Below are positions 114 to 64,000 of a DNA stretch of 64,000 bases, in pieces (position 1 is the stretch's first letter; every line of letters begins with the position of its first letter). The DNA is taken from positions 70,100,788 through 70,164,787 of the forward strand of contig CM120640.1 of NCBI GenBank assembly GCA_051362555.1, in the 5' to 3' direction. This stretch comes from Lingula anatina (taxonomy: Eukaryota > Animalia > Brachiopoda). Made by a program: the position numbers and the translations under genes. The notes below the pieces were generated by a model that was not told the origin of the DNA, did not search any database, and saw only the letters and a list, made by a program, of their open reading frames with translations.

Positions 114-6252
<6,139 letters not shown>

Positions 6253-13700: not shown

Positions 13701-15235
13701 TGAATAAGGCATTTCAAACAGGTATCTAGACAACATCACTACTGTACAGGGGCGGATCCAGAGATATTTTCTGACAGTCTTTCAAATAATCTTTGTTAAT
13801 TCGTCCTCAATTTTTGACCGACTTCCGACAGAAAATATTAGATACCCGTAAATGTAAACTTAAAAATCTGACCGTCTTCCGGAAGACCCAGAAGACGGCC
13901 TAAATCCGCCCCTGACTGTAGGATTGAAAATATCATGGAATCTTTGGGGGGTGGGACTTTTGCTGCTTTAAAACATCAACTTTTCTCTATTATTGACTGT
14001 TCTTGTTTGTCTTAAAGGCATGTTACATTCTTTTTACCCAACAAAATTTACTTCCATGCATCTGACTCAATTAAGACAGTGACAGCTGACAAGAACTAGA
14101 ATTTACTTTTCCATTGCAACATAACTAGAAAAATCCTACAGATGGTACCTTTTAGAGAAAACTGTCATCATATAAACACTAAAGTCTTATAATCTTTGGT
14201 CCAAGAGCAATCCGTCTAAAATCTTTATCTTTACTTAAAAGGTCCAAATCTTTAAAGATAATTTATTGTGTAAATAAACAGGTATGTAATCTGCCTTCTC
14301 AAGTAGTATACTGTGTATTGACCTACATGCGTTTTAAAAGATTAAAGCACAGACTCAATTAATAAAAATATATATTTCCTTTTTGCATCTGAAACTGACA
14401 AACTGGAATTCCTTACTAAGATACCATCTAATTTGTGAAATGAATGCAAGCCTACAATAATGACTCGATTTATCAATGGGGAAAATTGTGAATTTTACAG
14501 ATCTATACTGTTTTTTTTTACGTCATAAATTCATAAAATTGGAACATTCCTACTGAGTGATAGAAAAAAGATACTGAAAAGCTGACTACTATACTTATAT
14601 ATATATATTTATATTCTATACACCTCAAGCACCATAAATGCTACAAAAAATATTTTTTAATGATTCTAAAATTATGCATCTAAAAGATCGATCTTTTTTT
14701 CTATTAGACCAAGTTGTTACCATACTACATATATGTCAGCCAGCACAGACTGATAACAGATTATAGGGGAGGTTTGTCAGTATTTCAAGCAGGAAATTAA
14801 GTTTGGCTTAAGTACATCAGGTGACTGACACTGCCTATATGACTTAGTGTGCTGTGGATACAAATTTTAATTAAAAATTATAATATTAAAATAACCAAAT
14901 TAAAGCATTTGTATCATCTCAGGCCCGTAGCCAGCAGTTTCAAAAGGGGGGTTCTTTTTCTGAAAAACTTCATGTACTTATAGATAAATTTTCACCCAGA
15001 GTGGACCTTTTCCCAGCAAAAGGGGGGGGGGGGTTCAAAAGAACCCCCCAAACCCCCCTGGCTACGGGCCTGCATCTTTAGCTCCCTTTTATCTTAAATG
15101 ATCTTAGCTGTTGTTCTATAATATATATTCATACCATCAAGAATATATACTAGTACCTTGTTGTTGACCTTGCCCAGTCTGGCGCTGTGATCTGTCAATT
15201 ACTGACATCTCCCTGGGTCGCCTCAGAGAATCCAT
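7782..15235 (-). CDS. MCOLN: Mucolipin (TRPML) cation channel, paralogue A
   Basis: Exons approximately 15157-15235 (first exon tentative), 13380-13624, 12506-12698, 12180-12334, 11776-11898, 11365-11464, 11050-11154, 10759-10871, 10248-10398, 9818-9920, 9563-9685, 9109-9319, 8300-8445, 7782-7842. Motifs LRRKLKFHFMTPCQKW..RRFPWK, pore SECLFSLVNGDDMF, C-terminal CCR and dileucine EYSSLL. Confidence 0.92.
12775..12991. mobile_element. Foldback/MITE-like long imperfect palindrome
   Basis: Arms CCAACTCTGCAGGGGATTCTC...GAGAATCTCCTGCAGAGTTGG pair over about 100 bp; related sequence at about 23376-23529 and 17074-17103. Confidence 0.7.
13747..13914. mobile_element. MITE family B, copy 1 (CAGGGG termini, 6-bp TSD)
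   Basis: TIR CAGGGGCGGAT...ATCCGCCCCTG, TSD ACTGTA; homologous over its full length to 53804-53972. Confidence 0.88.
14920..15072. mobile_element. MITE family A, copy 2
   Basis: TIR CAGGCCCGTAGCCAG, TSD CATCT; internal similarity to 7286-7425. Confidence 0.88.
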
Positions 15236-16653: not shown

Positions 16654-17064
16654 TTATCTCCGCCAAGGAGGTTATATTTTCACCCCTGTTTGATTGTTTG
16701 TTTGTTTGTTTGTCAGCAACATAACTCAAAAAGTTATGCATAAATTTCGATAGAATTTTCAGGGTTGGTCAGAAATGGGTTAACTTAGAAGTAATTAGTT
16801 TTTGGTGGTAATCCAGATCAATAATCAATCAATAAGCAATAATCAATAATCAAAAATAAAAAACTAAGTTATGGACCGATTTTGATGAAATTTTCAGGAA
16901 CTGTCAGAAGTGGGCCAAGGAACAAATGATTAGTTTTTGGTGGAGATCCAGATCAATAATCAATCAATAGTCAATAATCAAAAATATCGCAAATTTAGGG
17001 GTGAAACAGCATTGGATGGAGACTTTGCTGCCTTGGCGAAGGTCTGCACTCTCTGAGTGCTTTT
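16654..17064 (+). mobile_element. Non-autonomous Helentron/DINE-1-like (HINE) element
   Basis: Subterminal inverted repeat CTCCGCCAAGG...CCTTGGCGAAG, (TTTG)n tract, two internal repeats of about 135 bp, 3' hairpin GCACTC-TCT-GAGTGC followed by a T run. Confidence 0.7.
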
Positions 17065-44300: not shown

Positions 44301-47300
44301 GTGTCTAAAATATATGTGCACACACAGATAATCTCAGATAAAACATTCCTTATTATTGGTGTTTGTTGTAGGGGTTTGAATGCCAACATGGCTCCATGCT
44401 TGCTTTGGGCTTCCTGATTGGCCGCCAGATGTACAAGGCCAAGGGACACCATGGTGACATTGCTGTAGAAGATATGGAAGTGGACAATAAAGCAAATGGA
44501 ATTGAACTCTACAGAGAAGCTGTGGAACAAATAGGTACTCACAGTTTAATTTACTAAAAAATGGAATACTGTCATGTACCTGGGAGAAAAAACGATCCTT
44601 ACAGTGCACATTGGTAGGTAATTGCAATTTTTCTCTTTAAGCCAAGAATCTCGACTCAAGGGATGTTGCCATGGTGATGGGTGCTTGCACTGCTATTGGT
44701 GAAGTTGGCAGAAATGGCAGTCTCCCAGTGGCTGATGGTGAGGTGAAAGAGAAAGAGGAAGACTCGGCAGTCAAGGATGAAACTGTGACAAAGCTCTCCA
44801 TTATAGATTGTTTGATTTCCAAAGTGCAGGCCACAAAAGAACCAATGAAGGTGAGGAATATCCAATATAACACTACCATTATTGAATACATCTTAAAATT
44901 TGTGAATGATGATGATATGCAAATTAAATAAATAACTGATTTAGGAACATTATTCCTTTTCTTGGTTTAGAGTTGATAGCTTGTATTTAAATTTGGGACC
45001 AGTGAGTGCCTGGGCACCTTGTGTGTGATAACAATACAGTATGTTGTAATATTTAGGTAAGAGAGAAGGCAGCCTGGTGTCTGGGCACCGTGTGTGTGAT
45101 AATGATACAGTATGTTGTAATATTTAGGTAAGAGAGAAGGCAGCCTGGTGCCTGGGCACCTTGTGTGTGATAACAATACAGTATGTTGTAATATTTAGGT
45201 AAGAGAGAAGGTAGCCTGGTGCCTGTGTGTGATAATGATACAGAATATTGTTATATATTTAGGTAAGAGAGAAGGCAGCCTGGTGCCTGGGCACCTTGTG
45301 TGTGATAATGATACAGAATATTGTTATATATTTAGGTAAGAGAGAAGGCAGCCTGGTGCCTGGGCACCTTGTGTGTGATAATGATACAGAATGTTGTTAT
45401 ATTTAGGTAAGAGAGAAGGCAGCCTGTTGCCTGGGCACCGTGTGTGTAGGAGAGGCAATGTTTCCACACAGACAGAGAGTGATGAAGGGGATGCTGGACT
45501 GTGCCCAGGTAAAAGTAGACATATTCTCAAGTGCTGCTCAAGGTTTACAAATGTTCTGCTCTTTTACTGTAGAAATTGTACTCTGTACTTAGGAGTTTTG
45601 ATGAAGTTTAGCCTGAGATACAGGTGTTAAAACATTGGTAAACAAATGTTGTGTTCTTATACTAGTACAATATAATTCTATACAAAGTAATTTTGGTGAA
45701 CTAAAGGCTGAGGTGTTAACACACTGCATGTGGGTGTTAAGATGCTGTACTTGGCTGTGTATGTTTATATATCTTAGTTCTGATTAGTAAAATTGTGCAA
45801 TATTTCAGTTCAGTTGTGTTAACAGTACCATTGTGGTCTATTTCAGCCTAAGCAGATAGAGTTACACCTGACTGTGGGTGAAGCCTTGGTGTGTGCAGCT
45901 CTAGGAAGTCACTCCCCAGTAGCCAGGGATCCATGGACTGTACAGGAAGACGACTTCAAGGTGATAACCAGCAGACATATGGGATTCGCAACTGTAATAG
46001 TGAATTCTTCAAATTCATTTAATTTAATCAAACAAAACATATTATCCTCATTGTACTGTTTTTAGCATGGGCATTAGTTCTTACAATAGAAAGAAATGAA
46101 AACTTTTTGATTTTATTTTTAAGCACTCATGCATGTCTTGCAAATGAGATATCTCTGCTAAATAAGATTCATATATGTTTTGTTTGAAATATTTTGTAGC
46201 CTTTAACAGACGCAGGAAAGGATGAAGTTGAGTGGCTCTTGTCGGAACTACATACAAAATATGTAAGAAGTGATAACCCACATATCAGACAGGTAAGCAG
46301 AGGAAGGACCTTTTCCCCATTAATGCTGACTATGACACTCACTTAATTGTTTATTGTTGCTATATTTTTTCAAGTTGTAAAATGCAATGGGTTATGTGAT
46401 AAATGCTTAGGCCCCATTCAGAATAGGAGACTAACTAGTCGGAAGGTCAAATATGGCAACCCACTACAAAAAACTTGCTGTCTAATCCGCTAATAAAAAC
46501 TGAATAGATATCCCGTGGGGAAGTATTCAAGTGGGTTGGCCATATTTGACCCTCGGACTAGTTAGTCCCCTATTCTGAATGTGGCCTTAGATGTTCCCTA
46601 GTGTCAAAGTTATTGGTGTATGCTGTGTTGCAGGCTGCCTGTGTGTGGCTGCTGTCCCTGGTGAAGAGCTGCAGTGGTCACAAGGTGATACAGGAGAATA
46701 TGAAGACTATACAGGGAGCATTTATGAGCTTACTAGCAGAAAACAATGGTAAGATGGTGAAAAACACCACGGTATTGGATTTAAGAGAATGGGGAAATTT
46801 TAAGATCTTTGACATTTTCTGTAAGTGTCAAGATGTCAATTTTACACAATCTTACAAACATGACAAATAGATTTTAATGTTTAATTCAGCTTGTAGGTAA
46901 AGCCATTGAAGATATTATCACTTTGATAATATCAAATATTACTCACAGTGGGATTAAATATTTTTTCTTGTGCCTAGAAATCACCCAGGACATCGCCTCC
47001 AAGGGTCTCAGTATAGTCTATGAGAACTCCAGCAAAGAGAGGAAAGATGAACTAGTGGCAGACTTGGTGCAGACACTCATGACAGGAAAGAGGTAAGCCA
47101 CCAGGGAGGTTACATAACTAAAGCCAGAGAAGAATAATTTTGGTAATTGGCAAAACATTTCTATGCTAGGATGAGCCTAGATCATCATGTGTGTTTTTTA
47201 CATGCTATATCACCACAGGTGCTGCACAAAGAGACGTGGGTGTAGACATTCAGTTTTATAAGGTTAATGTTTTTTAATCTGAAATACAAATCTTTAGGTC

Positions 47301-50300
47301 AGTCAGTGGTTTAGCAGTTTTAAGTCAATTTTAATTAATTGTATTAAAATACACTAAATCTTATTGCTAGATGTGATTACCCTTTATGCATTAGATTTAT
47401 AATAAAGAGATATTGTCCCCTTTGATGTGGCATAATATCTGGTCTCCATGGTGACATATTGCCTGGTCTCCATGATGACATAATCTCTGGTCTCCACATC
47501 AACCTAGGCCCCAGCAGCAGGTGACCAGTGATACCCAGGTGTTTGAGGAGGGAGCCCTGGGGAAGACACCAGATGGGCAGAGTCTATCCACCTACAGGGA
47601 GCTCTGCTCTATTGCCAATGATCTTAACCAGCCAGACCTGATCTATAAGTTCTTACACCTGGCTAATCACAATGCCATGTGGAACTCTAAGAAGGTGAGA
47701 GCACCTGTCTGCCATTAGCTCATATTATGAATACTATTTAAAGATTTGGACATTTTTGGATATCAGGTGATTGTTATTATCAAATACATTAACCACTGTA
47801 GAGTTCTGTTTGCTTGGATAAAAACATCTTTATAAGTGATTTTTAATCAAAACATCAATATAAATGGAAAAGATTACCACTGTGATGGAGACATAAATGG
47901 ATTTATTCAAACAGTGTTTATATTTCTACCTTCCAGGGTGCAGCTTTTGGGTTCACCAGTATATTTTCTCAAGCTGGAGAACAGCTGGCGCCATACCTGC
48001 CAAAGATTGTCCCCAAGTTGTACAGATATCAATTTGATCCCAACCCTAAGATCCAGCTGGCAATGACTAGTATATGGCAGTCTCTGGTGTCTGATAATAA
48101 GAAGACGGTGAGTTTATATTGCTTACATTGTCATTGTGGCATGTGTGGTTTGGTATGAGAGTTTGATTTCAGTAGAGAAGTTCATTAAACCAGTAAGAGT
48201 AATTCACGTATTTGACAAGTAAGTCTGTTGTCTGAATTTAAATGGAATGATTCAACTAGAACGATAAAGTGATAAAGAACTTACAGACTTTTTGCTCTGA
48301 TGTTCAGGGTTGAACATGAAATGTTATGAAGTCATCTTTTTGAATACAGGTTGATATGTATGTCCAAGATATCCTTGAGGACCTAATCAAGAACTTGACC
48401 AGTGCCCAGTGGAGAGTGCGTGAGTCCAGTTGTATGGCCCTTAATGACCTGTTCAGGGGTAGACAAATAGACGACATGGTGGACAAACTCCCTGTACTGT
48501 GGGAGAACTGCCTCAGAGTGCTGGATGATATTAAGGTGAATATCTTTGCAAAGTTTGCTCTTCTTTGGTGTAATAATAGTACAACAGATGATTAATGCTC
48601 TTTATGAGCAAATTCATGATGAGATTCAAATTGGGTGATTTTTTCTGTCATTAAATCAAGCACAGTAAAGGATGTATTCCTGTGAGGGTAAAGGTTATAT
48701 CATCTGGAGAAATTGTAAAAACTCTATATAGAACTATTATTGCATTTTAGGAATCTGTACGAAATGCAGCTGCCATTGCATGCAGAACCTTAAGCAAGGT
48801 AAGAAATGCTGAACATGTCTACTATGGAATCTGCATCTGTCAATTTAGTTCTTACAGATGAATATATAGATTATATTTATCTAATTGACAATTTGAAAAA
48901 CGTATTATGTTCCATATGATGAATACACTTAGTCTGTTAAAATTTCAAACTTTCCTGTACTCTATTCCAGGCCTCTATCAAGATCTGTGACGTATCCCAA
49001 GGGAAGATAGGAGAGAAGGCCATTAGTCTGGTGCTGCCTTGTCTACTACAACATGGGCTGGGGAGCCAAGTCCAGGATGTCAGGGCAGTGGGGTGAGTGG
49101 GGGAGATATCAAGATATCAAGTAAATCTACAACATGGGCTGGGGAGCCAAGTCCAGGACATCAGGGCAGTGGGGTGAGTGGGGGAGATATCAAGATATCA
49201 AGTAAATCTACAACATGGGCTGGGGAGCCAAGTCCAGGATGTCAGGGCAGTGGGGTGAGTGGGGGAGATATCATGATATCAAGTAAATCTACAACATGGG
49301 CTGGGAAGCCAAGTCCAGGACATCAGGGCAGTGGGGTGAGTGGGGGAGATATCAAGATATCAAGTAAATCTACAACATGGGCTGGGGAGCCAAGTACAGG
49401 ATGTCAGGGCAGTGGGGTGAGTGGGGGGTGGGAGGTAGATATCAGTTTAACCTACAACATGGGCTGGGGAGCCAAGTCCAGGATGTCAGGGCAGTGGGGT
49501 GAGTGGGGGAGATATCAAGATATCAAGTAAATCTACAACATGGGCTGGGGAGCCAAGTCCAGGTTGTCAGGGCAGTGGGGTGAGTGGGGGAGATATCAAG
49601 ATATCAAGTAAATCTACAACATGGGCTGGGGAGCCAAGTCCAGGAAGTCAGGGCAGTGGGGTGAGTGGGGGGGAGGTGTAGAGGGAGGTATCAGGTTAAC
49701 CTACTGCATGGACTGGGGAGTGGGCAGACATGAGCTTTTTCCATGGAAATGTGGAATTCCGCATTGTTTAATTCCATTATGATGACTCCTTAGATTTGTC
49801 AAGAACTGCAATAAAATCTGGTTCAGAGGGTTTTTTTTAACCTGGGAAGGGAGAGTGTGGGGGAGAGAAGTTTTCCTACAGCATGGGCTGAAGAGCCAAA
49901 TACAGGACGTCAGGGAAGTGGGAGAAGGGGATTGGGAGTGGAGGAGGAGGAGGAAGGAGAGAGAGAGAGAGATCGGGTTAACCTGGGGGATTCATGTTTA
50001 ATATTGTAATTGATGTAATCATACAGGGGCGTAACCAGGCCTTTTAAAATTGTACGCACAGGTTTTGAAAATTCCCATGTACGATTATATTCCGTGAAAA
50101 AATACACTGATTTTATGGTTAAATATATCAAGGTTGGCTTAAAACATTGTACGCACAGTGCATATGTGCGTATGCCTGGTTACGCCCCTGTCATATCAAT
50201 CCTCTTACCATAAGTACATTTCATAAATACATTTCCAGTATCTCTACCATAGTGAAGATCAGTAAGAATGCAGGTGCCCTGCTGAAGCCTCACATTCCAC

Positions 50301-51111
50301 TCCTAGTGTACAACCTCCTGGAGTCTGTCAGTGGACTGGAGCCACAGGTTCTCAATTACCTCAGTCTCAGGATAGGAGCCAACCAGATGGCCCAGGAGAA
50401 GGTAAGGAAACTAATACTTAACTACCTCAGTCTGAGAATAGGAGCCAACCAGATGGCCCAGGAGAAGGTAATAAGGAAACTAGCAAAACATATGGCTCAA
50501 AGTGAAGTTTTTGATGAAGTAATGAATCATTATGTCAGTTTTCATCGAAATCTGTCAGTTTAATTATGTACAATCCAAAAATTCTGCTAGTATTTTAACG
50601 AGAACATCTCAATAAATATGATCCTCCTTACAGTCAGTTAAGATCTTGGCCTGTGTTTTCAGCTTGACAGTGCAAGAATAGCAGCCTCCAAGTCCTCCCC
50701 CATGATGGAAACAGTCAATATGGTATGTTTACTTAGAGAAGGCTGTTTACTGGTTTAAACAAATAGCTCTCTTACTATTACACACACACATACACACGCA
50801 TGCATGTACGTGCACTCACACACAAACACATTGAAATCCCTATAGTATGTGCTATCCAGATCATAGATTTATTTCACATATAATCGACAAATTTTATAAT
50901 GCAGTGAGAGATTTTTAAAAAGCTTTTACCCCTCAGCTGTTTCTTGTTTTGATTCCCAATTTTAATTTGATTGTATCTTTTATTTTAGACTTGTTAATTG
51001 AATTTATTTATTTATTTTTATTTATTTCACAGTTAAATTTTTATTTTTCACTGAAGGGATATGACAGAAACCAATATATTGATGTATATTTTATTTGCAT
51101 TCTCAGAATAA

Positions 51112-51164
<53 letters not shown>

Positions 51165-54100
51165 GCTAACCTTAGTGAATGTTAACATATACATTGTGTA
51201 TTTCAGTGTATACAGTATGTAGATGGCAGTGTACTCCCAGAACTGGTGCCTAAACTAACAGATCTGATCAGGAGTGGTGTAGGATTGGGGACAAAGGTAA
51301 CATATTTCAGTGTATACAGTATGTAGATGACAGTGTACTCCCAGAACTGGTACCTAAACTAACAGATCTGATCAGGAGTGGTGTAGGATTGGGGACAAAG
51401 GTAACATATTTCAGTGTATACAGTATGTAGATGACAGTGTACTCCCAGAACTGTTGCCTTAACTAACAGATCTGATCAGGAGTGGTGTAGGATTGGGGAC
51501 AAAGGTAACATATTTCAGTGTATACAGTATGTAGATGACAGTGTACTCCCAGAACTGGTGCCTAAACTAGCAGATCTGATCAGGAGTGGTGTAGGATTGG
51601 GGACAAAGGTAACATATTTCAGTGTATACAGTATGTAGATGACAGTGTACTCCCAGAACTGGTACCTAAACTAACAGATCTGATCAGGAGTGGTGTAGGA
51701 TTGGGGACAAAGGTAACATATTTCAGTGTATACAGTATGTAGATGACAGTGTACTCCCAGAACTGGTGCCTAAACTAACAGATCTGATCAGGAGTGGTGT
51801 AGGATTGGGGACAAAGGTAACTTATTTCAGTGTATACAGTATGTAGATGGCAGTGTACTCCCAGAACTGGTACCTAAACTAACAGATCTGATCAGGAGTG
51901 GTGTAGGATTGGGGACAAAGGTAACATATTTCAGTGTATACAGTATGTAGATGGCAGTGTACTCCCAGAACTGGTGCCTAAACTAACAGATCTGATCAGG
52001 AGTGGTGTAGGATTGGGGACAAAGGTAACATATTTCAGTGTATACAGTATGTAGATGACAGTGTACTCCCAGAACTGGTACCTAAACTAACAGATCTGAT
52101 CAGGAGTGGTGTAGGATTGGGGACAAAGGTAACATATTTCAGTGTATACAGTATGTAGATGGCAGTGTACTCCCAGAACTGGTACCTAAACTAACAGATC
52201 TGATCAGGAGTGGTGTAGGATTGGGGACAAAGGTAACATATTTCAGTGTATACAGTATGTAGATGGCAGTGTACTCCCAGAACTGGTGCCTAAACTAACA
52301 GATCTGATCAGGAGTGGTGTAGGATTGGGGACAAAGGTAACATATATCAGTGTATACAGTATGTAGATGGCAGTGTACTCCCAGAACTGGTACCTAAACT
52401 AACAGATCTGATCAGGAGTGGTGTAGGATTGGGGACAAAGGTAACTTATTTCAGTGTATACAGTATGTAGATGGCAGTGTACTCCCAGAACTGGTACCTA
52501 AACTAACAGATCTGATCAGGAGTGGTGTAGGATTGGGGACAAAGGTAACATATTTCAGTGTATACAGTATGTAGATGACAGTGTACTCCCAGAACTGGTA
52601 CCTAAACTAACAGATCTGATCAGGAGTGGTGTAGGATTGGGGACAAAGGTAACATATTTCAGTGTATACAGTATGTAGATGGCAGTGTACTCCCAGAACT
52701 GGTGCCTAAACTAACAGATCTGATCAGGAGTGGTGTAGGATTGGGGACAAAGGTAACATATTTCAGTGTATACAGTATGTAGATGGCAGTGTACTCCCAG
52801 AACTGGTGCCTAAACTAACAGATCTGATCAGGAGTGGTGTAGGATTGGGGACAAAGGTAACATATTTCAGTGTATACAGTATGTAGATGACAGTGTACTC
52901 CCAGAACTGGTACCTAAACTAACAGATCTGATCAGGAGTGGTGTAGGATTGGGGACAAAGGTAACATATTTCAGTGTATACAGTATGTAGATGGCAGTGT
53001 ACTCCCAGAACTGGTGCCTAAACTAACAGATCTGATCAGGAGTGGTGTAGGATTGGGGACAAAGGTAACATATTTCAGTGTATACAGTATGTAGATGACA
53101 GTGTACTCCCAGAACTGGTACCTAAACTAACAGATCTGATCAGGAGTGGTGTAGGATTGGGGACAAAGGTAACATATTTCAGTGTATACAGTATGTAGAT
53201 GACAGTGTACTCCCAGAACTGGTGCCTAAACTAACAGATCTGATCAGGAGTGGTGTAGGATTGGGGACAAAGGTAACATATTTCAGTGTATACAGTATGT
53301 AGATGACAGTGTACTCCCAGAACTGGTACCTAAACTAACAGATCTGATCAGGAGTGGTGTAGGATTGGGGACAAAGGTAACATATTTCAGTGTATACAGT
53401 ATGTAGATGACAGTGTACTCCCAGAACTGGTACCTAAATTAACAGATCTGATCAGGAGTGGTGTAGGATTGGGGACAAAGGTAACATATTTCAGTGTATA
53501 CAGTATGTAGATGACAGTGTACTCCCAGAACTGGTACCTAAACTAACAGATCTGATCAGGAGTGGTGTAGGATTGGGGACAAAGGTAACATATTTCAGTG
53601 TATACAGTATGTAGATGACAGTGTACTCCCAGAACTGGTACCTAAACTAACAGATCTGATCAGGAGTGGTGTAGGATTGGGGACAAAGGTAACATATTTC
53701 AGTGTATACAGTATGTAGATGACAGTGTACTCCCAGAACTGGTACCTAAACTAACAGATCTGATCAGGAGTGGTGTAGGATTGGGGACAAAGGTAACATA
53801 TTTCAGGGGCAGACCCAGAGATATTTTCTGACAGTCCTCCAAATTTTCTTTGTTGATCCATCCTCCATTTTTGACCGTCTTCCGACAGAAAATGTTAGAT
53901 GCCTGTTAATGTAAACTTTAAAATTCTGTCCATCTCTGTGACAACCCAGAAGACAGCCTCCATCTGCCCCTGATATTTGGCTACACGTAGTGTACTTTGT
54001 ATTAGGATGTGTCCCATTTAAATCTACCAGTCTCATACCATGTTTTAGTATTATCGAAATGAATTACACCATTTATGCTAAATGTGAATTTGTGCTCTTC

Positions 54101-57100
54101 TACAAGTTATGTATTTTAGTATGGTATGCTATAAACCTGACTCTGAGTGTAAATAAATCTATTGTGTACCAATTATTATTGATTGCAATTTAATGGTTTG
54201 GTACAGATGTGTACTAAATTTGTTTTTAAGGTTCAAATAAACAAGGTGAAATTTCAAGAAAATAAAAAAAGGCTGTAGCACTAAGAATAGCTTGGTGAGT
54301 TTTGTAGTTCTATATATTCAGTATTTATCTTTAGTTTGTACTAAATTTATTCAATATTGCACCAATCAAAATATTTCATAAACTTAATTTCCTCCCAGGC
54401 TGGCTGTGCTAACATTGTGATCTCCTTGACTTACCAGTGTCCTCAAGATCTGAAACAGTATGCAGGTAAGATGATCAAATAACATTGTGATCTCCCTGAC
54501 TTACCAGTGTCCTCAAGATCTGAAACAGTATGCAGGTAAGAGGATCAAATAACATTGTGATCTCCTTGACTTACCAGTGTCCTCAAGATCTGAAACAGTA
54601 TGCAGGTAAGATGATCAAATAACATTGTGATCTCCCTGACTTACCAGTGTCCTCAAGATCTGAAACAGTATGCAGGTAAGAGGATCAAATAACATTGTGA
54701 TCTCCCTGACTTAACAGTGTCCTCAAGATCTGAAACAGTATGCAGGTAAGAGGATCAAATTCATGATAAACAGTGAGATTTCTTTATCAATACAATTATA
54801 TTCTAGCCACCTTTTTCCAAGATTGTCATAAATGTTGTATGATTTGTTTACATGTTTTGTTTTTTCTAGGAAAATTGATGAGTTCATTGTTGAATGGTCT
54901 CCATGATAAAAGTGCTACTATAAGGAAGGTTTATGCCACTGCACTAGGTTATCTGGTAAAGGTAAGAGGGGAATCTAATTGATGGATATTTGCCAGCTTT
55001 TCCATGAATTTCTTATATAATATGTGGATATGCTTCAGAAATGATACTTAAATAAATAAGAAGAATTTACCAAGATGTTAACTTTTACATTTTGATATTT
55101 AATCATCAACAGGTTTGAAATTTTCTCATTTGCACGTAATCAGGAATCAATAATTACTGAAATTAACACCCTTTTAGGTTTCCAAAGACAGTAGTGTGGA
55201 GAAACTTATTCAGAAATTGAAAACATGGTACATGGACAAAGAAGGTAAGACCTATGGTTTTAGCATTATAATTTATAGGCTAATGTGTAGGGTTCTCTTT
55301 TCAGATGCTTTGATTTGTGTAGAAACATCAAAGAGCTCATTTATATCTTATCGTATTAGAATCATAAATATATGAAAGTAGTAAAAATCCAATATTAGAA
55401 TATATGAAAGCAGTATAAAACTGATCCACACGTTGTTAACTATGGTTATACTATATATCAGATGAGAGCACCAAGTCGTCCTGCGGCCTCACTCTCCAGG
55501 CTATTACCCATCATGCACCAGATGTTCTCAAGCGGCATGCAGCCGAGGCGTTACCCATGGCCTTCTTGGCTATGCATGACAAAAGGAAGAGGGGTGTGTA
55601 GAGACTGAGCTTTTGTTTTTACTTGAATAAAATGCTTATTTAGAAATTTAAGGGTGAATGTTTCAAGAGATGTTAATATCTAAGATGGAAATTTATTTAA
55701 AAATGTGTATTTCTTTTAAGAAAAATCTTTTCTAAACAGTTGATTTCTTCATTGTGTTTGAACCAATCTCTGTTTAACATATACCTATTATATTGTCTGC
55801 AAGTTGTAACAAGTTAAAATTATTAATAATTCTGGAATTACCTGTTTCACAGAAAACCAGCAAGAAGAACCAGAAAATGTGTGGGAGGAAGTTTGGACTG
55901 AAGGAACACCAGGTTAATATTTTAATAAAGCTTATAATTATGTAAAGCTAATAAAAATGAAATATATCATGATCAGTTTGTAAAATAAGACGTTTTAATG
56001 AAATATTTTTATTTTTATATATTTGAGTGAAATAATCACACTTGTATACGAAAGTGAGCACTGGTCATGTTTGCAATTTGCATGCCACACCAAGTATCAT
56101 GTATGACATGTTGCATGACACAATACAGAACAGTGTGTTTGTACAAATAGTCATACCATTTACACAATGACAGCAGACAACTCACAGCACACCCAACTCT
56201 CCCTCCAGGTACAGAGGCTGGGATCAGACTGTACCTGAAGGAGCTGGTGGCTCTCTGCCAGGTGTTCCTGCAATCTCAGTCCTGGCACAGGAAGGCGCAA
56301 GGTGCCCTAGCCATCAAGACTCTGGCCTCCAAGCTGGGCAGCACCCTGGGACCACCTCAGTTAGGGGAGGTGTTGAGGGCACTCCTCTCAGGACTGACTG
56401 GGAGGACATGGCCAGGGAAGGAAACTTTACTCACAGCAATCTCCGAAGTCTGTGTCTCATGCAGGTAAATTGTCTTGGTGTTCATGTCTCTAAAGATGAA
56501 TTGTCCCAGTGTACATTGTTTATGTAGATAAATTGCCCCGATGTTCATGTGTCATGCAGGCAAATTGTCCTGGTGTTTCGTGCGTAACGGGTTATATTTC
56601 CTGATTGTTATCTTTATCATTGTATTTAAATTATTGAGCAAATTGTTGTATCATTATTTGAAAAGGTAGCATTTTCTTTTTAAGAAAATCAATAGAAAAT
56701 CCCCCAGCAAATGGTGGATCAGAACAACAACCAACAATTGAACAGGTAATGATGTTCACCTTTAAAACCTCAAACACCTCTTTAGTTGCTAATATCGTAA
56801 GATTATTTTAGATAGGCATTTAGTGTGTTCATAAAACCTTTCTGTTTCAGTACAGAAAATAGTATTTTTAATATATTTGTGTTGTATATAATTTAGTTTC
56901 AAGTAGATATTTTTATATAAAAGCTAGTCTTTTGTTGCATATTGCAGATCTTAGACTTCGTGATGAAAGAATGCAAGAAAGAAAATCTTGCTTACAAAAT
57001 GGAGGCTGTGAAGGCTATGGGAATTGTACTAGAAACTTACCAGGCAGACCGTTTCCAAGAACTAGCTGACATACTGTACCCACATGTTGACAAGGTAGAC

Positions 57101-59593
57101 AGATTAAACTTTGATCATTTTCAAAGACTAGCTGAAATCTTGTACCCACATGTTGACAAGGTAGATAGATTAAACTTTGATCATTTTCAAAAACTAGCTG
57201 AAATCTTGTACCCACATGTTGACAAGGTAGACAGATTAAACTTTGATCATTTTTAAAAACTAGCTGAAATCTTGTACCCACATGTTGACAAGGTAGACAG
57301 ATTAAACTTTGATCATTTTCAAAGACTAGCTGAAATCTTGTACCCACATGTTGACAAGGTAGACAGATTTAACTTTGATCATTTTCAAAAACTAGCTGAA
57401 ATCTTGTACCCTCATGTTGACAAGGTAGACATATGTAACTTTGATCATTTCTACAGCACATGTATTAGGTTGAATACCTGTTTTGTTTATTTTATGATTT
57501 GGCACCAAATGAGGAAAGTGCTTTGTATTTCCATAGGCAAGTAGGAAAAAACATTTTTTGTGAACATGACTAAACAAAGTGTCAAATAAGTTACATTTTA
57601 TTATCTGTTTTCTGTACTATAGGATGCTAAATCAGGGGAGGAGGAAGAGGAGCTGGTTGGGGAATATAAAGATTTGGTGCTGAGCTTCAAAGAGGTGGCC
57701 TTTGAGGCACTGGGTCAAGCATGGCCGGAGGTCAAGGCCACTCAGGGTAGGTCAAGGCCACTTGGGGCATAGACTTCTATGATATTAAGTACGCAAAGAC
57801 ACTACTGAGATAAAAAAAACACTTATGTGTATATATACTTATACATTATTAATTATACAAAGACACTGCTTGCATATGAAAGACTTATGTGTATATATGT
57901 AGTATCAAGTATACAAAGACACTGCTTATATACACTGGTAGAAAGATATATACCAAGGATTTGACACAGAAGAGCTTTGTAAAGTACCTTTCACAGTGAT
58001 TTTTATATGTATAAAAGACAATTAGATTATAAAAATGTACATTTCTTTAAGCAAAGTTTTCAGTTATTTTCATTAAGTAAATGGAAAAAAAAGAAAAGCG
58101 AAAGTCTTCATTGTGTCCATATTTCAGATGTGCATGCAGGCAGGTTATGGGCAGTGCTGACGAAGGCATTATCTGATAGCTATTGGAAACAACAGGTGGC
58201 CGTTCTTCATACCATGACCAAAGTCCTAGACAGGTAGGAAGGATGCTATATACATACAGCAGGGTTTTTATTATCAGTCTACAACACCTATTGTATCTCG
58301 CTCTCATTGACCTTGTTGTCCTGTAAACTGCTTCATCTTAGCTCCTTCCATGTTTGTCTTACACAGTTTAAAAGGATCAAAAGATTTGATCCTAATTTTT
58401 TCTTCTGTTTAAGAAAATATTTGTGGAAAATTAAGTTCTTGATACAAGATGTACTTCTAGAATATATCTTGCTCAGTTACTTTATTATTGGTTTAGATTG
58501 CTGATCCTCCAAGAGCCTAGTTTGGTAGAGGAACACAGAGAAAGTCTTACCTTAATGGTGCAGCCCACGGTGGACCCCCTGGTGGACTGCTTAGGTGAGG
58601 AACTGCAGTGTTTTTTATCATCATATGAACTTATGAAAATTTGATTCAAAGAATGCATGTTAGTATAAGCTGTTATTGGAGTGGAATGAATTTTGCTCAT
58701 TACTTCCCAGTAATCATTCCATATGTATTTTGTATTTATATAGATGTTATAAAACCAAAAGTAGAGTAGAGAGCCTGTAAAATGTAACTTGTACACATTT
58801 AAGTCCTCAATAAAGAACATTATTATTACTAACAACACCTTTGAATCAGAATATAGATATTGAAACAGGACAAAGTATATTAAGAAAGAGAGTGCATAAG
58901 ATTTAAATACTGTGCCTTATTCCTGTGTTGTAGGAAACATGAAATATTCTACAGTGAGAACAGAAGCACTTGATGTCACAGAAAGGATAGTTAAGAAATT
59001 ACATGGTGGGTATAGTTCACTTGATAAAGTATTGAAGGCAGTGGAGGCTTTTTTCTTACCAATGCCTTTGGTTTGATATTTAATGTGTCACCACACACAT
59101 TTACTGTCACTGCATACAATATATTGGTAGTTTATTTCTTAAAAAGCCAACCCTAAACATGTGCCCAGTGCTACGTACATAAAAAACACTAAGAACAGAA
59201 TTTTAATGAAAAGTTAATGTCATAAAACTACTATTTTACATTAATGAAAATAGTTCATGAAAAAGGTCATACTCTTTTTCGAAAGTCTTTCAGCACTTGG
59301 CTTCTGTTTAAAGATCTTTACAATTTAATCAATAGATATGTGTTCACTGGAGAAACTTTTGTATGTAGTGCAGCAATCAAAACTGTCAGCTACATAACAG
59401 ATGAGTTCAGCTGTAGTACTTTTAAGTCCACTTTATTTTTGACATTTTTTTTTCAGTTGTTGGCCATTTATCTCTTCTAAGCACAGCCCACCAGGCCAAA
59501 CTAGTCCAGTGTCTGGATAAAATGGCACAAGATTCTAAACCAGAACTGAAAGACAAAGCATCAGACATCAGAAAATTCTTTGGAACTTCATAG
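36914..59593 (+). CDS. ECPAS: Proteasome adaptor and scaffold protein ECM29 (HEAT repeats), roughly 45 exons
   Basis: N-terminus [18 protein letters not shown]...[12 protein letters not shown]; [37 protein letters not shown]; WRVRESSC; GRTWPGKE. Checked exons include 36914-36941, 37477-37604, 41866-41988, 45407-45508, 48971-49092, 50239-50401, 51207-51296, 54399-54465, 56209-56464, 56948-57094, 57623-57746 and 59457-59593 (TAG). Confidence 0.94.
38339..38398. repeat. (ATTT)n microsatellite abutting an ECM29 acceptor
   Basis: About 15 units ending in tttcAG at 38401. Confidence 0.95.
41753..41885 (+). repeat. Duplicated acceptor junction with an embedded 24-bp-arm perfect hairpin
   Basis: 41753-41788 matches 41850-41885 at 30/36 positions; 41787-41810 is the exact reverse complement of 41818-41841. 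Confidence 0.85.
45006..45447 (+). repeat. About 71-bp tandem repeat x6 spanning an ECM29 acceptor
   Basis: tttAG|GTAAGAGAGAAG with AG ending at 45056, 45127, 45198, 45262, 45335 and 45406 (the real one). Confidence 0.95.
46410..46586. mobile_element. MITE, PIF/Harbinger-like
   Basis: About 55-bp imperfect TIRs GGCCCCATTCAGAATAGG.../...CCTATTCTGAATGTGGCC, TTA TSD. Confidence 0.85.
47431..47497. repeat. About 24-bp tandem repeat x3 just upstream of an ECM29 acceptor
   Basis: cataat-ctggtctccatg-tga unit, ending about 10 nt before the AG at 47507. Confidence 0.8.
49046..49925 (+). repeat. 81-bp G-rich tandem repeat x8 (plus 2 decayed copies) spanning an ECM29 donor
   Basis: Unit = last 47 nt of the exon + GTGAGTGGGGGAGATATCAAGATATCAAGTAAAT; decayed copies near 49701 and 49876. 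Confidence 0.95.
50024..50190. mobile_element. MITE family C (CAGGGG termini, 5-bp TSD)
   Basis: 17-bp perfect TIR CAGGGGCGTAACCAGGC, TSD TCATA. Confidence 0.88.
50351..50482 (+). repeat. 66-bp duplication spanning an ECM29 donor
   Basis: GAGAAG|GTAA at 50401 and 50467. Confidence 0.93.
51113..51161. repeat. (ATT)n microsatellite
   Basis: About 16 units, about 45 nt upstream of the exon array. Confidence 0.95.
51199..53806 (+). repeat. 104-bp tandem array x25: a whole 90-nt ECM29 exon plus a 14-nt GT..AG spacer
   Basis: First exon copy 51207-51296, last ends at 53792 (24 x 104 later). Exon encodes CIQYVD[G/D][23 protein letters not shown]; spacer GTAACATATTTCAG. Confidence 0.97.
53804..53972. 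mobile_element. MITE family B, copy 2
   Basis: TIR CAGGGGCAGA...TCTGCCCCTG, TSD ATATTT; homologous to 13747-13914. Confidence 0.88.
54410..54760 (+). repeat. 70-bp tandem repeat x5 spanning an ECM29 donor
   Basis: TGCAG|GTAAG with the exonic G at 54465, 54535, 54605, 54675 and 54745. Confidence 0.95.
56453..56579 (+). repeat. Decayed 32-bp repeat x4 spanning an ECM29 donor
   Basis: tgtctcatgcag|gtaaattgtcttggtgttca followed by three diverged copies. Confidence 0.7.
57052..57451 (+). repeat. 66-bp tandem repeat x6 spanning an ECM29 donor
   Basis: GACAAG|GTAGA with the exonic G at 57094, 57160, 57226, 57292, 57358 and 57424. Confidence 0.95.
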
Positions 59594-60874: not shown

Positions 60875-63091
60875 TCAGTCCATTCCCTCAAAGCTGCTGT
60901 ATTTCAACTGTCTTGATCTTGAGCTGGTGCGCATTCCATGTTTGTGGGAAGCTCTCTTTTTACAAGAATCTGATCTAAAGATAAGTTTGCAATTCCCAGA
61001 TCGCGTCACTCTCCACTTCACCCTCTCTGAGTCATACGGCTGGCTGATGGGTGTCACTACGATCTTACAGAATTTCAGCTTTAAATGTCCAGAGTTTTCT
61101 TCACTTTTCACAGACCACTGAAAGTTGTTTGTTGGGAGACTCACATGGCGTTTGGCTGTAAACATACTTTCCCGGAGTTCGTCAACAGCTTCTAGTGAAG
61201 CGATGTCATCAGACATCTGGGCGTCGGGGCTCGAATCAATCTGATCTGAAGGTAGAGAATCATCTGAAGAAAGAACGTTGTTGGTCGAATCCATTTTGAC
61301 TCCAGGCAGAGAACTATCAGAAGAGAGGGCCATCGACACCGAGTCCGCACCTCTATCGGCGACAGAGTCATTAAATACGTCGTCTTCTAAATCAACAAAA
61401 GAACAACCAGCCGGGGGCGACTGGTAAACATCGTTCCAATTTTTTTCGTCTATCACAGGTCCATTTTTATGGAAAATCAGTTTTGTTGAATTACGCCTAG
61501 AAATTTTCCACAAATTTGCCTCATCGGTCTCCGAATGAAATTCGTAAGGGTCAATGACATCTTGTTCAGGAGATGTGATGTGCGCTGATGGGAGTTGATC
61601 AATGGAGGAGTCTGAAAGCTTGGTGAGTTCCTCGCGGTGACTAGAACTGGTGAAGCCGATGTCGATCTCTCCCTCGCTGGTTTTTGATTTTATTTCAGTG
61701 GCACGCTGATGATTTTCTGGCAGGGGCACGGGGACATCAAATATTTTGTTAATGCAGTCTTTAACGTTTGTTGGCTGAATATCGTCATTTGCTGACAATG
61801 TTCCACCTCTGGGGCTGAAACATTTGTTCTCTACAGTCTGTACGTCATAAGTCCCACATTCATTTTCGTTAATTGATTTTGCAACGTCACACACTCTTTC
61901 TTCTGCTTGAGCAGCTACTGCCAGAACTTTTTGTTCCTGGATACCATCATTTAGTTCGACAGATTCCACAACACCATCATCAGTTTTAGACTGTGGTTCA
62001 GATAAAACGACATTGTTCTTTTCTGCTTGAATGACATTGAATGAAGTTGCATCGTTACTCGATTCGTCAACTAGCTTTTTAGCGGCTTCGCTATCGGCAC
62101 TGCTGTCTGGGTTTTCGGATTCCAAACAGACGGTCAGAAACTCGTCAAAAGATGGGAAACTATCAATGACATCGTCCAAGCGGTTATAGTTGTTGTTATT
62201 GTCTGCATATCGCCTGTGTCCTTCACTAACAAGGTGGTCGTCTAAACACCTGTACCAAACGTCACAACACTCGCAATATCCACGCTGTTTTCCAATCGAG
62301 GCTGCTTGTTTCACTGCGAGGGCACGACGCGGAGTGGTGATTGCTCGCGGTGTAGTACAAGTGCTTTTACTGTTCTGCACAGTCGCTGGTACTTTCGACA
62401 TAGATTGCTCATTCTTCCCAAAGACCACATCGTTCTCTAAATCAATGTAAGGGAAATCAGCAAATGTACTGTAGACAGGTCTAAGGTTCTCCTGAGTGTC
62501 CTCTATTTTTAAGAAGTCCCCTTTAAAATATGTGTAGTCATTTTCATCAATCCATTTAAAGCTGTCCTCTATGTTTTTAGATTTTGTATTTGTTGCTTTC
62601 TTGTTTTCGTCTTTAATTTTTTTCAATACTTCCTGTAAGGACAGTATTGGTACTCCCCACATCTTTGCATTGGTTAACACGTCATTACGACCTGCACTCG
62701 ACCGACGCGTAGAGGTCGACTTGAGAACCAGCGCCATACCTCGACTTATCACTGGGGCCTTGGAGCCATCAACGCTAGAAGGTGACGGCGTCTTTGTGGG
62801 TTCCACTGGAGATCCATTTACGCCACATTCTGTGGTTTTGTTGGTAACAACAAAGTTCACTTCACGACTCAGAAAGCGTTCAATTCTTCCACCCAGTCTC
62901 ACAACATCCTCCTCCAGTTTAGCCAGCTTAGAGTAGCCATCCAGGTCGAGGAAGAAAGATTTCCCATTGTACGGTTTAGATGTGAACAACAGCCGTCTCT
63001 TTGCAGTCCCCGGTGAAGAAAATCTAGTCCCAGCTGACTTGGTCATTTGTGTAGAGCTCCCCATTACTGCAGCCCGTCTTGCTCCACTCAT
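60875..63091 (-). CDS. DBF4: DBF4/ASK/Chiffon-like regulatory subunit of CDC7 kinase, single coding exon (about 738 aa)
   Basis: First ATG of the 776-aa ORF is at 63091. Motif N/BRCT (GKSFFLDL...RLGGRIERFLSREVNFVVT...AKMWGVPI), motif M (FLKIEDTQENLRPVY) and motif C zinc finger (GYCECCDVWY..LDDHLVSEGHRRYA). Confidence 0.92.
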   Translation of the reverse strand: MSGARRAAVMGSSTQMTKSAGTRFSSPGTAKRRLLFTSKPYNGKSFFLDLDGYSKLAKLEEDVVRLGGRIERFLSREVNFVVTNKTTECGVNGSPVEPTKTPSPSSVDGSKAPVISRGMALVLKSTSTRRSSAGRNDVLTNAKMWGVPILSLQEVLKKIKDENKKATNTKSKNIEDSFKWIDENDYTYFKGDFLKIEDTQENLRPVYSTFADFPYIDLENDVVFGKNEQSMSKVPATVQNSKSTCTTPRAITTPRRALAVKQAASIGKQRGYCECCDVWYRCLDDHLVSEGHRRYADNNNNYNRLDDVIDSFPSFDEFLTVCLESENPDSSADSEAAKKLVDESSNDATSFNVIQAEKNNVVLSEPQSKTDDGVVESVELNDGIQEQKVLAVAAQAEERVCDVAKSINENECGTYDVQTVENKCFSPRGGTLSANDDIQPTNVKDCINKIFDVPVPLPENHQRATEIKSKTSEGEIDIGFTSSSHREELTKLSDSSIDQLPSAHITSPEQDVIDPYEFHSETDEANLWKISRRNSTKLIFHKNGPVIDEKNWNDVYQSPPAGCSFVDLEDDVFNDSVADRGADSVSMALSSDSSLPGVKMDSTNNVLSSDDSLPSDQIDSSPDAQMSDDIASLEAVDELRESMFTAKRHVSLPTNNFQWSVKSEENSGHLKLKFCKIVVTPISQPYDSERVKWRVTRSGNCKLIFRSDSCKKRASHKHGMRTSSRSRQLKYSSFEGMD

Positions 63092-64000
63092 AGCAGCTGA
63101 ATGAATAGTATGAGCTGAACGACACCCGCCGGCTTCCCCCTGCGCGATGCCCCAGATAACGATATTACTGCCACGCAGGTGCCTCTGTCGCGGGCTCAGG
63201 TGCAATTACTTTACACTTTTATTGTTGTTGTAATGTGTTTTCTTTCCCCTTCTGTCATGGTAATAAAAATGTCACGTGGCAGAATTCAAATTGAAGGACT
63301 TCATCATTATTAAAAAAAAGACAAATTATTTTATAATTTTTAAGGATGGTTGGAATGAAAAAACCACATGACACTGTTGCACACTGTGAAAGAGGGTAAA
63401 CCATCCATTGTTCGTTTTCCCGGTCCAGCTTGGCTTCCGCGAGTAAAATATAGTGAGGGGCTGAATATAGAACGGGCTTTTAATCATATATCATTTTGAG
63501 CCAGTGAATTACCTGATTATAAAATATCATATTATCATATATTACAAAAAGTGATGAATTATTTGACTACTAAATAATTTAATTCGTTCATATAGGATTC
63601 TTTTACTGGCGGATACAGGATGTCATAATGGGGAGGGGGTCTGTCCTTTTGGCATGTGTATGGGTCAAATCGTCGTGTTTTTATTTTATTTTATTATACT
63701 ATTATTCTATTTATTTGGAAACAGGGCTTTCAGTATTTGATTATTAAAAGCAAATAAAAATGAACGACATAGTTTTTCTCCTACATTGATTGGCGATCCA
63801 GTCCGTATAAACATCTTATGAACAAAAAATATCTGCGCATCAGATTATAAGTTTTAAATCCACAAAGTCAGTCCAAAAATGCCAATGTTTAGACCGCTGA
63901 AAGGAGGGTTTGTCTGACCAAGCTGTTGGGTTGACAACCACTTCAGTTTGCTGACGTATTAACTGGGACGCTGTCAGTGATCAGTGTCACATCAGTTAGC

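What the first reader, a model, noticed from the sequence alone, without database searches (positions are those of the whole stretch)
51199..53806. 25 tandem copies of a complete, symmetric ECM29 exon separated by 14-nt GT..AG spacers
Seen: the copies retain cAG| and |GTAA around a phase 0-0, 90-nt exon. Variants GGC/GAC (Gly/Asp) and GTG/GTA recur in alternating patterns; copy 3 has a TAA (51460) and copy 4 an ACA>GCA change. Retaining a spacer shifts the frame to a nearby TAG. Established: 14 nt is far below the usual metazoan minimum intron size, so neighbouring copies should be sterically mutually exclusive. Inference: donor n to acceptor n+2 (118 nt) is feasible, so the locus could yield mutually exclusive Gly/Asp exons, multi-copy in-frame HEAT-segment expansions or circRNAs. 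Alternatively, 24 near-perfect exons are silenced. An ACTAAC branch-like motif lies inside each exon copy.
Basis: partly seen in the sequence, partly recalled or inferred. Interest (0 to 1): 0.85.

Follow-up and report, generated by a model that had tools for sequence, protein, structure and literature searches.

The report
Whole exon copied into a minisatellite
In a lamp-shell (Lingula) gene for a proteasome adaptor, one complete exon with both of its splice signals is copied 25 times in a row, yet the messenger RNA seen carries a single copy, likely the first, so this is most likely drifting repeat DNA of a kind known from lancelets and humans rather than a splicing switch.

Summary
Observation confirmed: 25 tandem 104-bp units, each a 90-nt phase 0-0 ECM29 exon plus a 14-nt GT..AG spacer. 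The gene matches Lingula anatina ECM29. The array is real: two RefSeq models break at its edges, and two DNA runs and two RNA runs hold its junction. The isoform reading is not supported. In six RNA runs, 54 reads join the exon to the next exon and no exon-to-exon or back-splice joint was listed. Gly/Asp splits by animal (42 of 44 Gly in two studies, 49 of 49 Asp in a third) instead of mixing like the array. Only copy 1 has a normal acceptor. Five more ECM29 exon edges and one cathepsin edge carry such arrays. This works like the lancelet "mirage" and human F7 splice-site minisatellites; the scan has noted donor-only arrays in at least 21 other genomes. The variant feature is a whole-exon unit, likely seeded by an 8-bp microhomology that an adjacent MITE completes. 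Not tested: which copy is used within one animal, rare isoforms below about 7-13%, and circRNA.

The parts
51199..53806 (+). 104-bp minisatellite, 25.1 units, each a whole ECM29 exon plus a 14-nt donor/acceptor spacer
   Evidence: junction seen in DNA runs X1, X3 and RNA runs X18, X19
51207..51296 (+). Copy 1: 90-nt phase 0-0 exon in the HEAT_ECM29 domain, Gly type; the likely functional copy
   Evidence: Pfam PF24492, E 3.2e-08; identical to P0001 1086-1115; only copy with a normal acceptor
51165..51206 (+). Authentic acceptor region of copy 1: AT-rich, CTAAC- and TTAAC-type branch-like motifs (branch use not tested), AG-free zone of 29 nt
   Evidence: sequence; score 6.7 bits, at the median of 46 ECM29 acceptors
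51297..53792 (+). Copies 2-25 with spacers: decoy exons whose acceptor overlaps the preceding donor and follows a G-rich exon end
   Evidence: usual score 2.1 bits, only 2 of 46 real acceptors lower; 13 G in -40..-15 against a maximum of 7 in real acceptors
51460..51462 (+). In-frame TAA in copy 3
   Evidence: not listed in any run laid, so a consensus error is not excluded
51199..51206 (+). Left 8-bp microhomology TATTTCAG (end of the upstream intron)
53799..53806 (+). Right 8-bp microhomology TATTTCAG; its last three bases are the first three bases of the MITE
53804..53972 (.). 169-bp high-copy MITE-like element, 10-bp terminal inverted repeats, flanked by a 6-bp direct repeat (53798-53803 and 53973-53978)
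   Evidence: 2340 contigs laid in X3 and loose ends pile at 53804
50663..50722 (+). Upstream ECM29 exon, spliced to the exon copy
   Evidence: loose-end consensus in 5, 6 and 8 reads of X13, X16, X19
54399..54465 (+). Downstream ECM29 exon
   Evidence: GT..AG joint in 13, 10, 4 reads; loose ends in 14, 5, 8 reads
54410..54760 (+). 70-bp x5 donor-side array on the downstream exon; first donor used
   Evidence: RNA depth 0 at 54472-54479 in 3 of 3 runs
50351..50471 (+). 66-bp x2 donor-side duplication at exon 50239-50401
49046..49671 (+). 81-bp x7.7 donor-side array (donor 49093)
45006..45447 (+). 71-bp x6.3 acceptor-side array (acceptor 45406)
57052..57450 (+). 66-bp x6 donor-side array (donor 57095)
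2905..3192 (+). 57-bp x5 acceptor-side array in the neighbouring cathepsin-L-like gene (last acceptor 3168)
   Evidence: P0039 uses one copy, P0038 reads through the array

Best explanation
This is a minisatellite whose 104-bp unit is one whole ECM29 exon with both splice sites; the mRNA seen carries one copy, likely the first, and the other 24 are likely silent, neutrally drifting decoys inside what is spliced out as one long intron. Origin (inferred): the same 8 bases flank the exon on both sides, so slippage or unequal exchange between them would duplicate the exon, and later unequal crossing-over and conversion would expand and shuffle the units. The right-hand 8-mer ends in the first three bases of a MITE, so the insertion likely lengthened a 5-bp match to 8 bp, or its repair triggered the duplication. 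Silencing (inferred): only copy 1 keeps a real intron end. Each inner acceptor lies within the 14 bases that begin with the preceding donor, has a G-rich run where pyrimidines should be, and would be blocked by U1 on that donor. The first donor then wins, as shown experimentally for human F7. Gly/Asp behaves as an allele difference between animals, not as an isoform.
For: Anatomy. RNA, six runs from three studies: 54 reads join the exon to the next exon (13, 10, 4; 14, 5, 8), 19 join the upstream exon, and no go-back-90 joint is listed. In the four stranded runs no go-back-104 joint is listed, and spacer depth is 0 in the two where the spacer could be seen apart from the MITE. Codon 7 is Gly in 10/12, 13/13, 11/11, 8/8 reads and Asp in 12/12, 37/37, while the arrays in DNA runs X1 and X3 are about 39% and 45% Gly. 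In RefSeq the first copy is Gly and the last Asp (P0036, P0037), as in the window. X13 has GTA in 11 of 12 reads and no Asp in 13, although 11 of the window's 15 GTA copies are Asp. Three of four singleton exon changes alter the protein, one to a stop, against 203 of 270 expected at random. The Gly/Asp position takes 8 different residues across 33 homologues. Five other ECM29 arrays each straddle a splice junction (joint P about 0.005, uniform null), as does the cathepsin array. Precedent: PMC1557585, PMC3087553, PMC3902484.
Against: No run pairs RNA with the same animal's array, so 'first copy' is inferred; any single copy of the right type would give the same reads. Two of 12 X12 reads are Asp. 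The GTG/GTA site is mixed unevenly (5/12, 1/12, 8/10 GTG), which fits pooled or heterozygous animals but also rare use of another copy. Depth is low: joints under 3 reads are not listed, and the 95% bound on exon-to-exon joins is only about 7% (13% if mates are halved). Only 6-26% of each run was read. X19 has 28 spacer-retaining junction reads against 8 spliced; this fits background times copy number (P of an empty flank 0.31-0.56), but the library is unstranded, so stalled splicing is not excluded. The splice score was trained on 45 introns of one gene. A 5-bp match alone would give the same unit, so the MITE's role is unproven.
Confidence: 0.8

Rival explanations
1. The array is a working cassette: the upstream exon is spliced to different copies, or donor n joins acceptor n+2, giving regulated Gly/Asp isoforms or in-frame multi-copy HEAT segments.
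For: All 25 copies keep AG and GT, phase is 0-0, 24 of 25 are open, and 118 nt exceeds the gene's shortest intron of 107 nt. Two Asp reads of 12 in X12. A 14-nt intron lies between mutually exclusive exons of C. elegans egl-15 (PMC4165533). Human CBS and 6-16 use two extra donors (PMC1557585 Introduction).
Against: No exon-to-exon joint listed in 6 of 6 RNA runs; 5 of 6 runs are pure Gly or pure Asp. Inner acceptors score near the bottom. Copies differ at one tolerant residue, one carries a stop, and none of 33 homologous proteins with a hit has a second copy. Copy number appears to differ between DNA runs (about 24 against about 7 by rough depth).
Confidence: 0.06
2. The array is non-adaptive but leaky: copy 1 dominates, while a few percent of transcripts use an inner copy, include two copies, circularise, or stall with the array unspliced and go to nonsense-mediated decay, so array length would tune ECM29 output.
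For: X12's two Asp reads and the uneven GTG/GTA ratios; abundant spacer-retaining reads in X19 (28) and X18 (4); the upper bound on rare joints is loose.
Against: No spacer-retaining joint listed in the four stranded runs. X18 and X19 are unstranded and their junction reads fit DNA or pre-mRNA background multiplied by copy number. Pooled animals explain the mixed sites.
Confidence: 0.12
3. The array is an assembly artefact of one exon or a small duplication.
For: Units are 98% alike and no record spanning the array was seen.
Against: Two RefSeq models from a haplotype with other amino-acid differences break at the two edges of the array. The 104-bp junction is in X1 and X3 contigs and X18 and X19 reads. 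In X1 the exon-to-flank word depth is about 24 and the Gly share 0.39, against 25 copies and 0.40 in the window (depth is a rough measure, and X1 may be the source sample).
Confidence: 0.02

Closest known systems
Amphioxus 'mirage' minisatellites (Adh3, troponin C, globins BflGb6 and BflGb9, PGBD5); PMC3087553 and PMC3902484, passages read
   Same: Tandem duplication of an exon-intron boundary, donor or acceptor side; units of 10-160 bp; variable copy number; splicing reported as normal; several cases per genome; confuses gene models.
   Different: In the passages read, each unit spans one boundary. Here the unit holds the whole exon and both sites, leaving 14-nt pseudo-introns. 25 copies; a brachiopod; a MITE at the array end.
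Human donor-spanning VNTRs: F7 IVS7 (37 bp x5-9), LMNB2 (100 bp x10-15), PDGF (81 bp x16-18), CBS IVS13, 6-16; PMC1557585, abstract and Introduction read
   Same: First unit spans the real donor; identical downstream donors; the most upstream donor is used (F7, LMNB2, PDGF); similar unit size and copy number.
   Different: Described as reiterating donors only; here each unit also carries an acceptor and an in-frame exon. CBS and 6-16 use two extra donors; no such use was listed here at low depth.
Sterically enforced mutually exclusive exons, e.g. C. elegans egl-15 5B/5A (14-nt intron) and let-2 9/10 (30 nt); Dscam clusters; PMC4165533, passages read
   Same: Adjacent exons separated by an unspliceable 14-nt intron; a cluster of homologous exons.
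   Different: Those clusters show alternate use in mRNA, and (recalled) their variants are diverged and conserved. Here copies are 98% identical, one carries a stop, and only one type is seen in 5 of 6 runs.

Membership tests
Splice-site minisatellite ('mirage' / F7-type VNTR) | Head-to-tail repeats whose unit spans an exon-intron boundary of the host gene | tested here: met
   the unit spans both boundaries
Splice-site minisatellite ('mirage' / F7-type VNTR) | Splice signals reiterated in the extra units | tested here: met
   25 of 25 units keep AG and GT
Splice-site minisatellite ('mirage' / F7-type VNTR) | Mature mRNA normal, extra sites largely unused | tested here: met
   54 exon-to-next-exon reads, no exon-to-exon joint listed in 6 RNA runs; low depth
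Splice-site minisatellite ('mirage' / F7-type VNTR) | Copy number varies between alleles or individuals | tested here: inconclusive
   Word-depth ratio about 24 in X1 and about 7 in X3; the tool warns that this depth is no copy number
Splice-site minisatellite ('mirage' / F7-type VNTR) | Somatic length instability (reported for Adh3) | not testable with these tools
   needs single-molecule typing of tissues
Mutually exclusive exon cluster from tandem exon duplication | Two or more copies each found spliced into mRNA of the same genotype | tested here: inconclusive
   5 of 6 runs pure at codon 7, X12 10 Gly and 2 Asp; no matched DNA; synonymous site mixed in some runs
Mutually exclusive exon cluster from tandem exon duplication | Each alternative exon has its own competent acceptor | tested here: not met
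   inner acceptors -1.7 to 3.4 bits against 6.7 for copy 1; usual inner copy has 7 pyrimidines against at least 8 in 46 real acceptors; by score only
Mutually exclusive exon cluster from tandem exon duplication | Duplicates kept under coding constraint and across species | tested here: not met
   3 of 4 singleton changes alter the protein, one stop; 0 of 33 homologous proteins with two copies; small numbers, genomes of relatives not examined
circRNA-producing exon | Back-splice junction reads, resistant to RNase R | tested here: inconclusive
   no go-back-90 joint listed, but the libraries are mostly poly(A)-selected

The most novel reading that the evidence does not exclude
A coding exon of a conserved single-copy gene is itself the first unit of a minisatellite that a transposon insertion set off, and it evolves in concert with its 24 decoys. 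Unequal exchange would keep swapping which unit sits first, so the Gly/Asp and synonymous alleles seen in mRNA are drawn from the array, and a stop-carrying unit could be drawn too. With six ECM29 exons and a neighbouring gene affected, Lingula would be a genome in which exon edges are systematic seeds of repeat growth that rewrites coding sequence.
Probability: 0.35. Interest if true: 0.55.

Novelty: new variant of a known kind. Interest (0 to 1): 0.33.

Why it matters
It is a natural test of exon definition: 24 near-perfect, mostly in-frame copies of an exon with intact AG and GT are ignored, which points to intron-side context and donor-acceptor spacing as what makes an exon. It extends splice-site minisatellites to brachiopods and to whole-exon units, and offers a concrete trigger (a MITE end that completes a microhomology). 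Practically, such arrays split or distort gene models (P0036/P0037, P0038). It does not appear to create new protein isoforms.

Tried and rejected
No whole genome is held for this window, so no genome-wide survey of exon-edge arrays was possible. The look-up of sequencing runs listed no indexed RNA holder; this is no evidence, and raw-read RNA runs were laid instead. 8 of the 21 listed runs were laid (X1, X3, X12, X13, X15, X16, X18, X19), each on a single-unit reference, so reads are not phased and inner copies cannot be told apart by position. Periodic or alternating variant pattern: rejected (runs tests). The Fisher table was mistyped; the corrected one is (P=0.12). In-exon ACTAAC as branch point for the next copy: judged unlikely from five intervening AGs, not tested. 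The first ECM29 intron call (GC donor, 37339) was dropped as uncertain before scoring (46 of 47 kept). The junction test left out four short-period repeats in the gene (periods 3, 4, 13, 24), so its threshold is post hoc, and selection against purely exonic duplications would also raise the overlap. The 135-bp two-copy repeat at 16731-16985 is 79% alike and was not tied to an exon. Literature: eight searches listed no paper describing a whole-exon minisatellite or such arrays in Lingula, judged from titles and abstract starts. Two Lingula genome papers had no main-text hit for 'satellite' or 'ECM29' (term counts and passages only). No supplements were opened, and the library lacks most subscription papers, so absence from print is not shown. 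Scan look-ups by place, by Lingula words, by whole-exon words and by sequence found no matching earlier finding.

Full report
What is there. Tandem Repeats Finder gives 51199-53806, period 104, 25.1 copies, 98% matches. Cut in register, the array is 25 copies of a 90-nt exon (first at 51207-51296), each followed by a 14-nt spacer that starts with GT and ends with AG. The exon hits Pfam HEAT_ECM29. The exon at 50246-50401 is 100% identical to Lingula anatina ECM29, P0001. A spliced alignment of P0036 and P0001 to the window gives 47 introns, the first uncertain, and both introns around the array exon are phase 0. The two common variants are each in 10 of 25 copies and occur in all four combinations, without significant alternation.

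Is it real? Yes. RefSeq model P0036 ends by reading from a Gly copy through the spacer into the next copy, and P0037 begins in a preceding copy, crosses a spacer, and runs through an Asp copy into the next exon. Those models differ from the window at several residues, so they reflect another haplotype. The 104-bp junction is in contigs of DNA runs X3 and X1 and in reads of X18 and X19. In X1 the two variant branches sum to about 24 times the flank depth with a Gly share of 0.39; the window has 25 copies and 0.40. In X3 the ratio is about 7. The tool warns that this depth is not a copy number, and X1 may be the source sample, so these figures are only suggestive of length variation.

What the RNA does. 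Six raw RNA runs from three studies were laid on single-unit references, three on 53689-54479 and three on 51165-51310. The exon is joined to the next exon in 13, 10, 4, 14, 5 and 8 reads, and to the upstream exon in 5, 6 and 8 reads of the second set. No joint from exon end back to exon start was listed in any run; the listing threshold is 3 reads from 2 starts. With 42 such reads in the four stranded runs, the 95% bound is about 7%, or 13% if mates are halved. Codon 7 is Gly in 42 of 44 reads of studies P5 and P6 and Asp in 49 of 49 reads of P7, whereas the arrays seen in DNA are mixed. X13 has GTA in 11 of 12 reads and no Asp, although most GTA copies in the window are Asp. Against a clean reading: X12 has 2 Asp reads of 12, the synonymous site is unevenly mixed in X12, X13 and X16, and X19 has 28 spacer-retaining reads against 8 spliced. 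The last fits background multiplied by 24 junctions, but the library is unstranded. None of the RNA runs has matched DNA, so use of the first copy is an inference.

Why one copy wins (inferred). Scored with a matrix from the gene's own introns, copy 1's acceptor gets 6.7 bits (22 of 46 real acceptors lower) and the usual inner acceptor 2.1 (2 of 46 lower). The usual inner acceptor has 7 pyrimidines in -23..-4 (real minimum 8), 13 G in -40..-15 (real maximum 7) and an AG-free zone of 12 nt against 29. Its last 14 bases begin with the preceding donor, so U1 and the acceptor factors would compete for the same bases (established footprints, recalled). All donors are equal (5.7-5.8 bits). Experiments on human F7 show that the most upstream of identical donors is chosen (PMC1557585 abstract). 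The neighbouring 70-bp array behaves the same way: RNA depth falls to 0 just after its first donor in 3 of 3 runs. The 14-nt spacer is far below the gene's shortest intron of 107 nt; in C. elegans a 14-nt intron between egl-15 exons is never excised (PMC4165533).

How it arose (inferred). TATTTCAG ends the upstream intron and recurs 6 bases into the downstream intron. Of the 44 other exons checked, none has more than a 6-base match of this kind. The last three bases of the right copy are the first three of a 169-bp element with 10-bp terminal inverted repeats and a 6-bp flanking direct repeat; two similar elements lie at 13747 and 50024, and the family is high-copy. The array ends exactly there, which is unlikely by chance with about 6 such ends in 64 kb (post hoc). 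I put a causal role of the MITE at about 65%, since a 5-bp match alone would give the same unit. All four variant combinations point to exchange among units. Three of four singleton exon changes alter the protein, near the random share of 203 in 270, and the Gly/Asp site takes 8 residues among 33 homologues, so there is no sign of selection on the inner copies.

It is not alone. Five more ECM29 exon edges carry arrays (71, 81, 66, 70 and 66 bp), and each straddles a splice junction; the joint chance under uniform placement is about 0.005 (caveats under Tried and rejected). The 57-bp array in the neighbouring cathepsin gene straddles an acceptor: P0039 uses one copy and P0038 reads through it. 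The whole-exon array is therefore best seen as the case in which the duplicated piece happened to cover both edges; about 3% of 104-bp windows in this gene do.

Comparison with what is known. It works like, and meets the tested features of, the lancelet 'mirages' (PMC3087553 and PMC3902484, passages) and the human F7, LMNB2, PDGF, CBS and 6-16 minisatellites (PMC1557585, abstract and Introduction). I took these leads from earlier scan notes, which list 53 findings of this kind in at least 21 genomes, and read the papers myself. It fails two tests for a mutually exclusive exon cluster and leaves a third open. My searches listed no whole-exon case, which does not show that none is in print.

Verdict. 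A real, striking but most likely non-functional structure: a new variant of a known kind. The open points worth a follow-up are concerted evolution of a coding exon with its own satellite, the MITE trigger, and how common this is in Lingula. Interest 0.33.

Noticed in passing
window 45407-45508: The functional last copy of the acceptor-side array reads AACCLGTV where both RefSeq models read AAWCLGTL. All five upstream decoys keep W and three keep the L codon, one has V. Repeat turnover or plain polymorphism has changed the coding copy; the positions vary among homologues.
   Followed up: partly
window 2905-3192: Acceptor-side 57-bp x5 array in a cathepsin-L-like gene; the unit is a multiple of 3 and open, so read-through would add 19-residue repeats, as in model P0038. 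RNA not checked.
   Followed up: partly
window about 8200-35600, minus strand: Tandem cluster of at least three, possibly four, mucolipin-like genes; two of them are 70-97% alike in matching blocks. Only 1 of 10 pieces hit Pfam MCLN_ECD, below its cut-off; the name otherwise rests on recalled motifs.
   Followed up: partly
window 60875-63205, minus strand: Single 776-codon open frame with a DBF zinc finger and a weak BRCT hit: a DBF4-like gene, apparently without introns in this part.
   Followed up: no
window 13747-13914, 50024-50190, 53804-53972: Three 167-169 bp elements that begin CAGGGGC with terminal inverted repeats; two have a 6-bp flanking direct repeat and one a 5-bp one. Family not identified. 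The family is abundant in the RNA runs.
   Followed up: partly
RNA runs X18 and X19 on window 51207-51296 / 53703-53792: These runs carry exon variants absent from the window's 25 copies (exon positions 27, 53, 72) and are all Asp in both spliced and array reads, suggesting a diverged population whose array has homogenised with its exon. The position-72 variant (7 of 9, 5 of 39) may mark the spliced copy; unphased.
   Followed up: partly
window 49700-49930: Diverged remnants of the 81-bp donor unit lie downstream of that array (a match at 49876-49923, 81% at protein level), suggesting an older round of the same duplication.
   Followed up: no
window 47427-47496: 24-bp x2.9 repeat that ends 11 bases upstream of the acceptor at 47507 without including it.
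   Followed up: no
window 16731-16985: 135-bp two-copy repeat, 79% alike, between mucolipin-like genes, apparently inside a dispersed element.
   Followed up: partly
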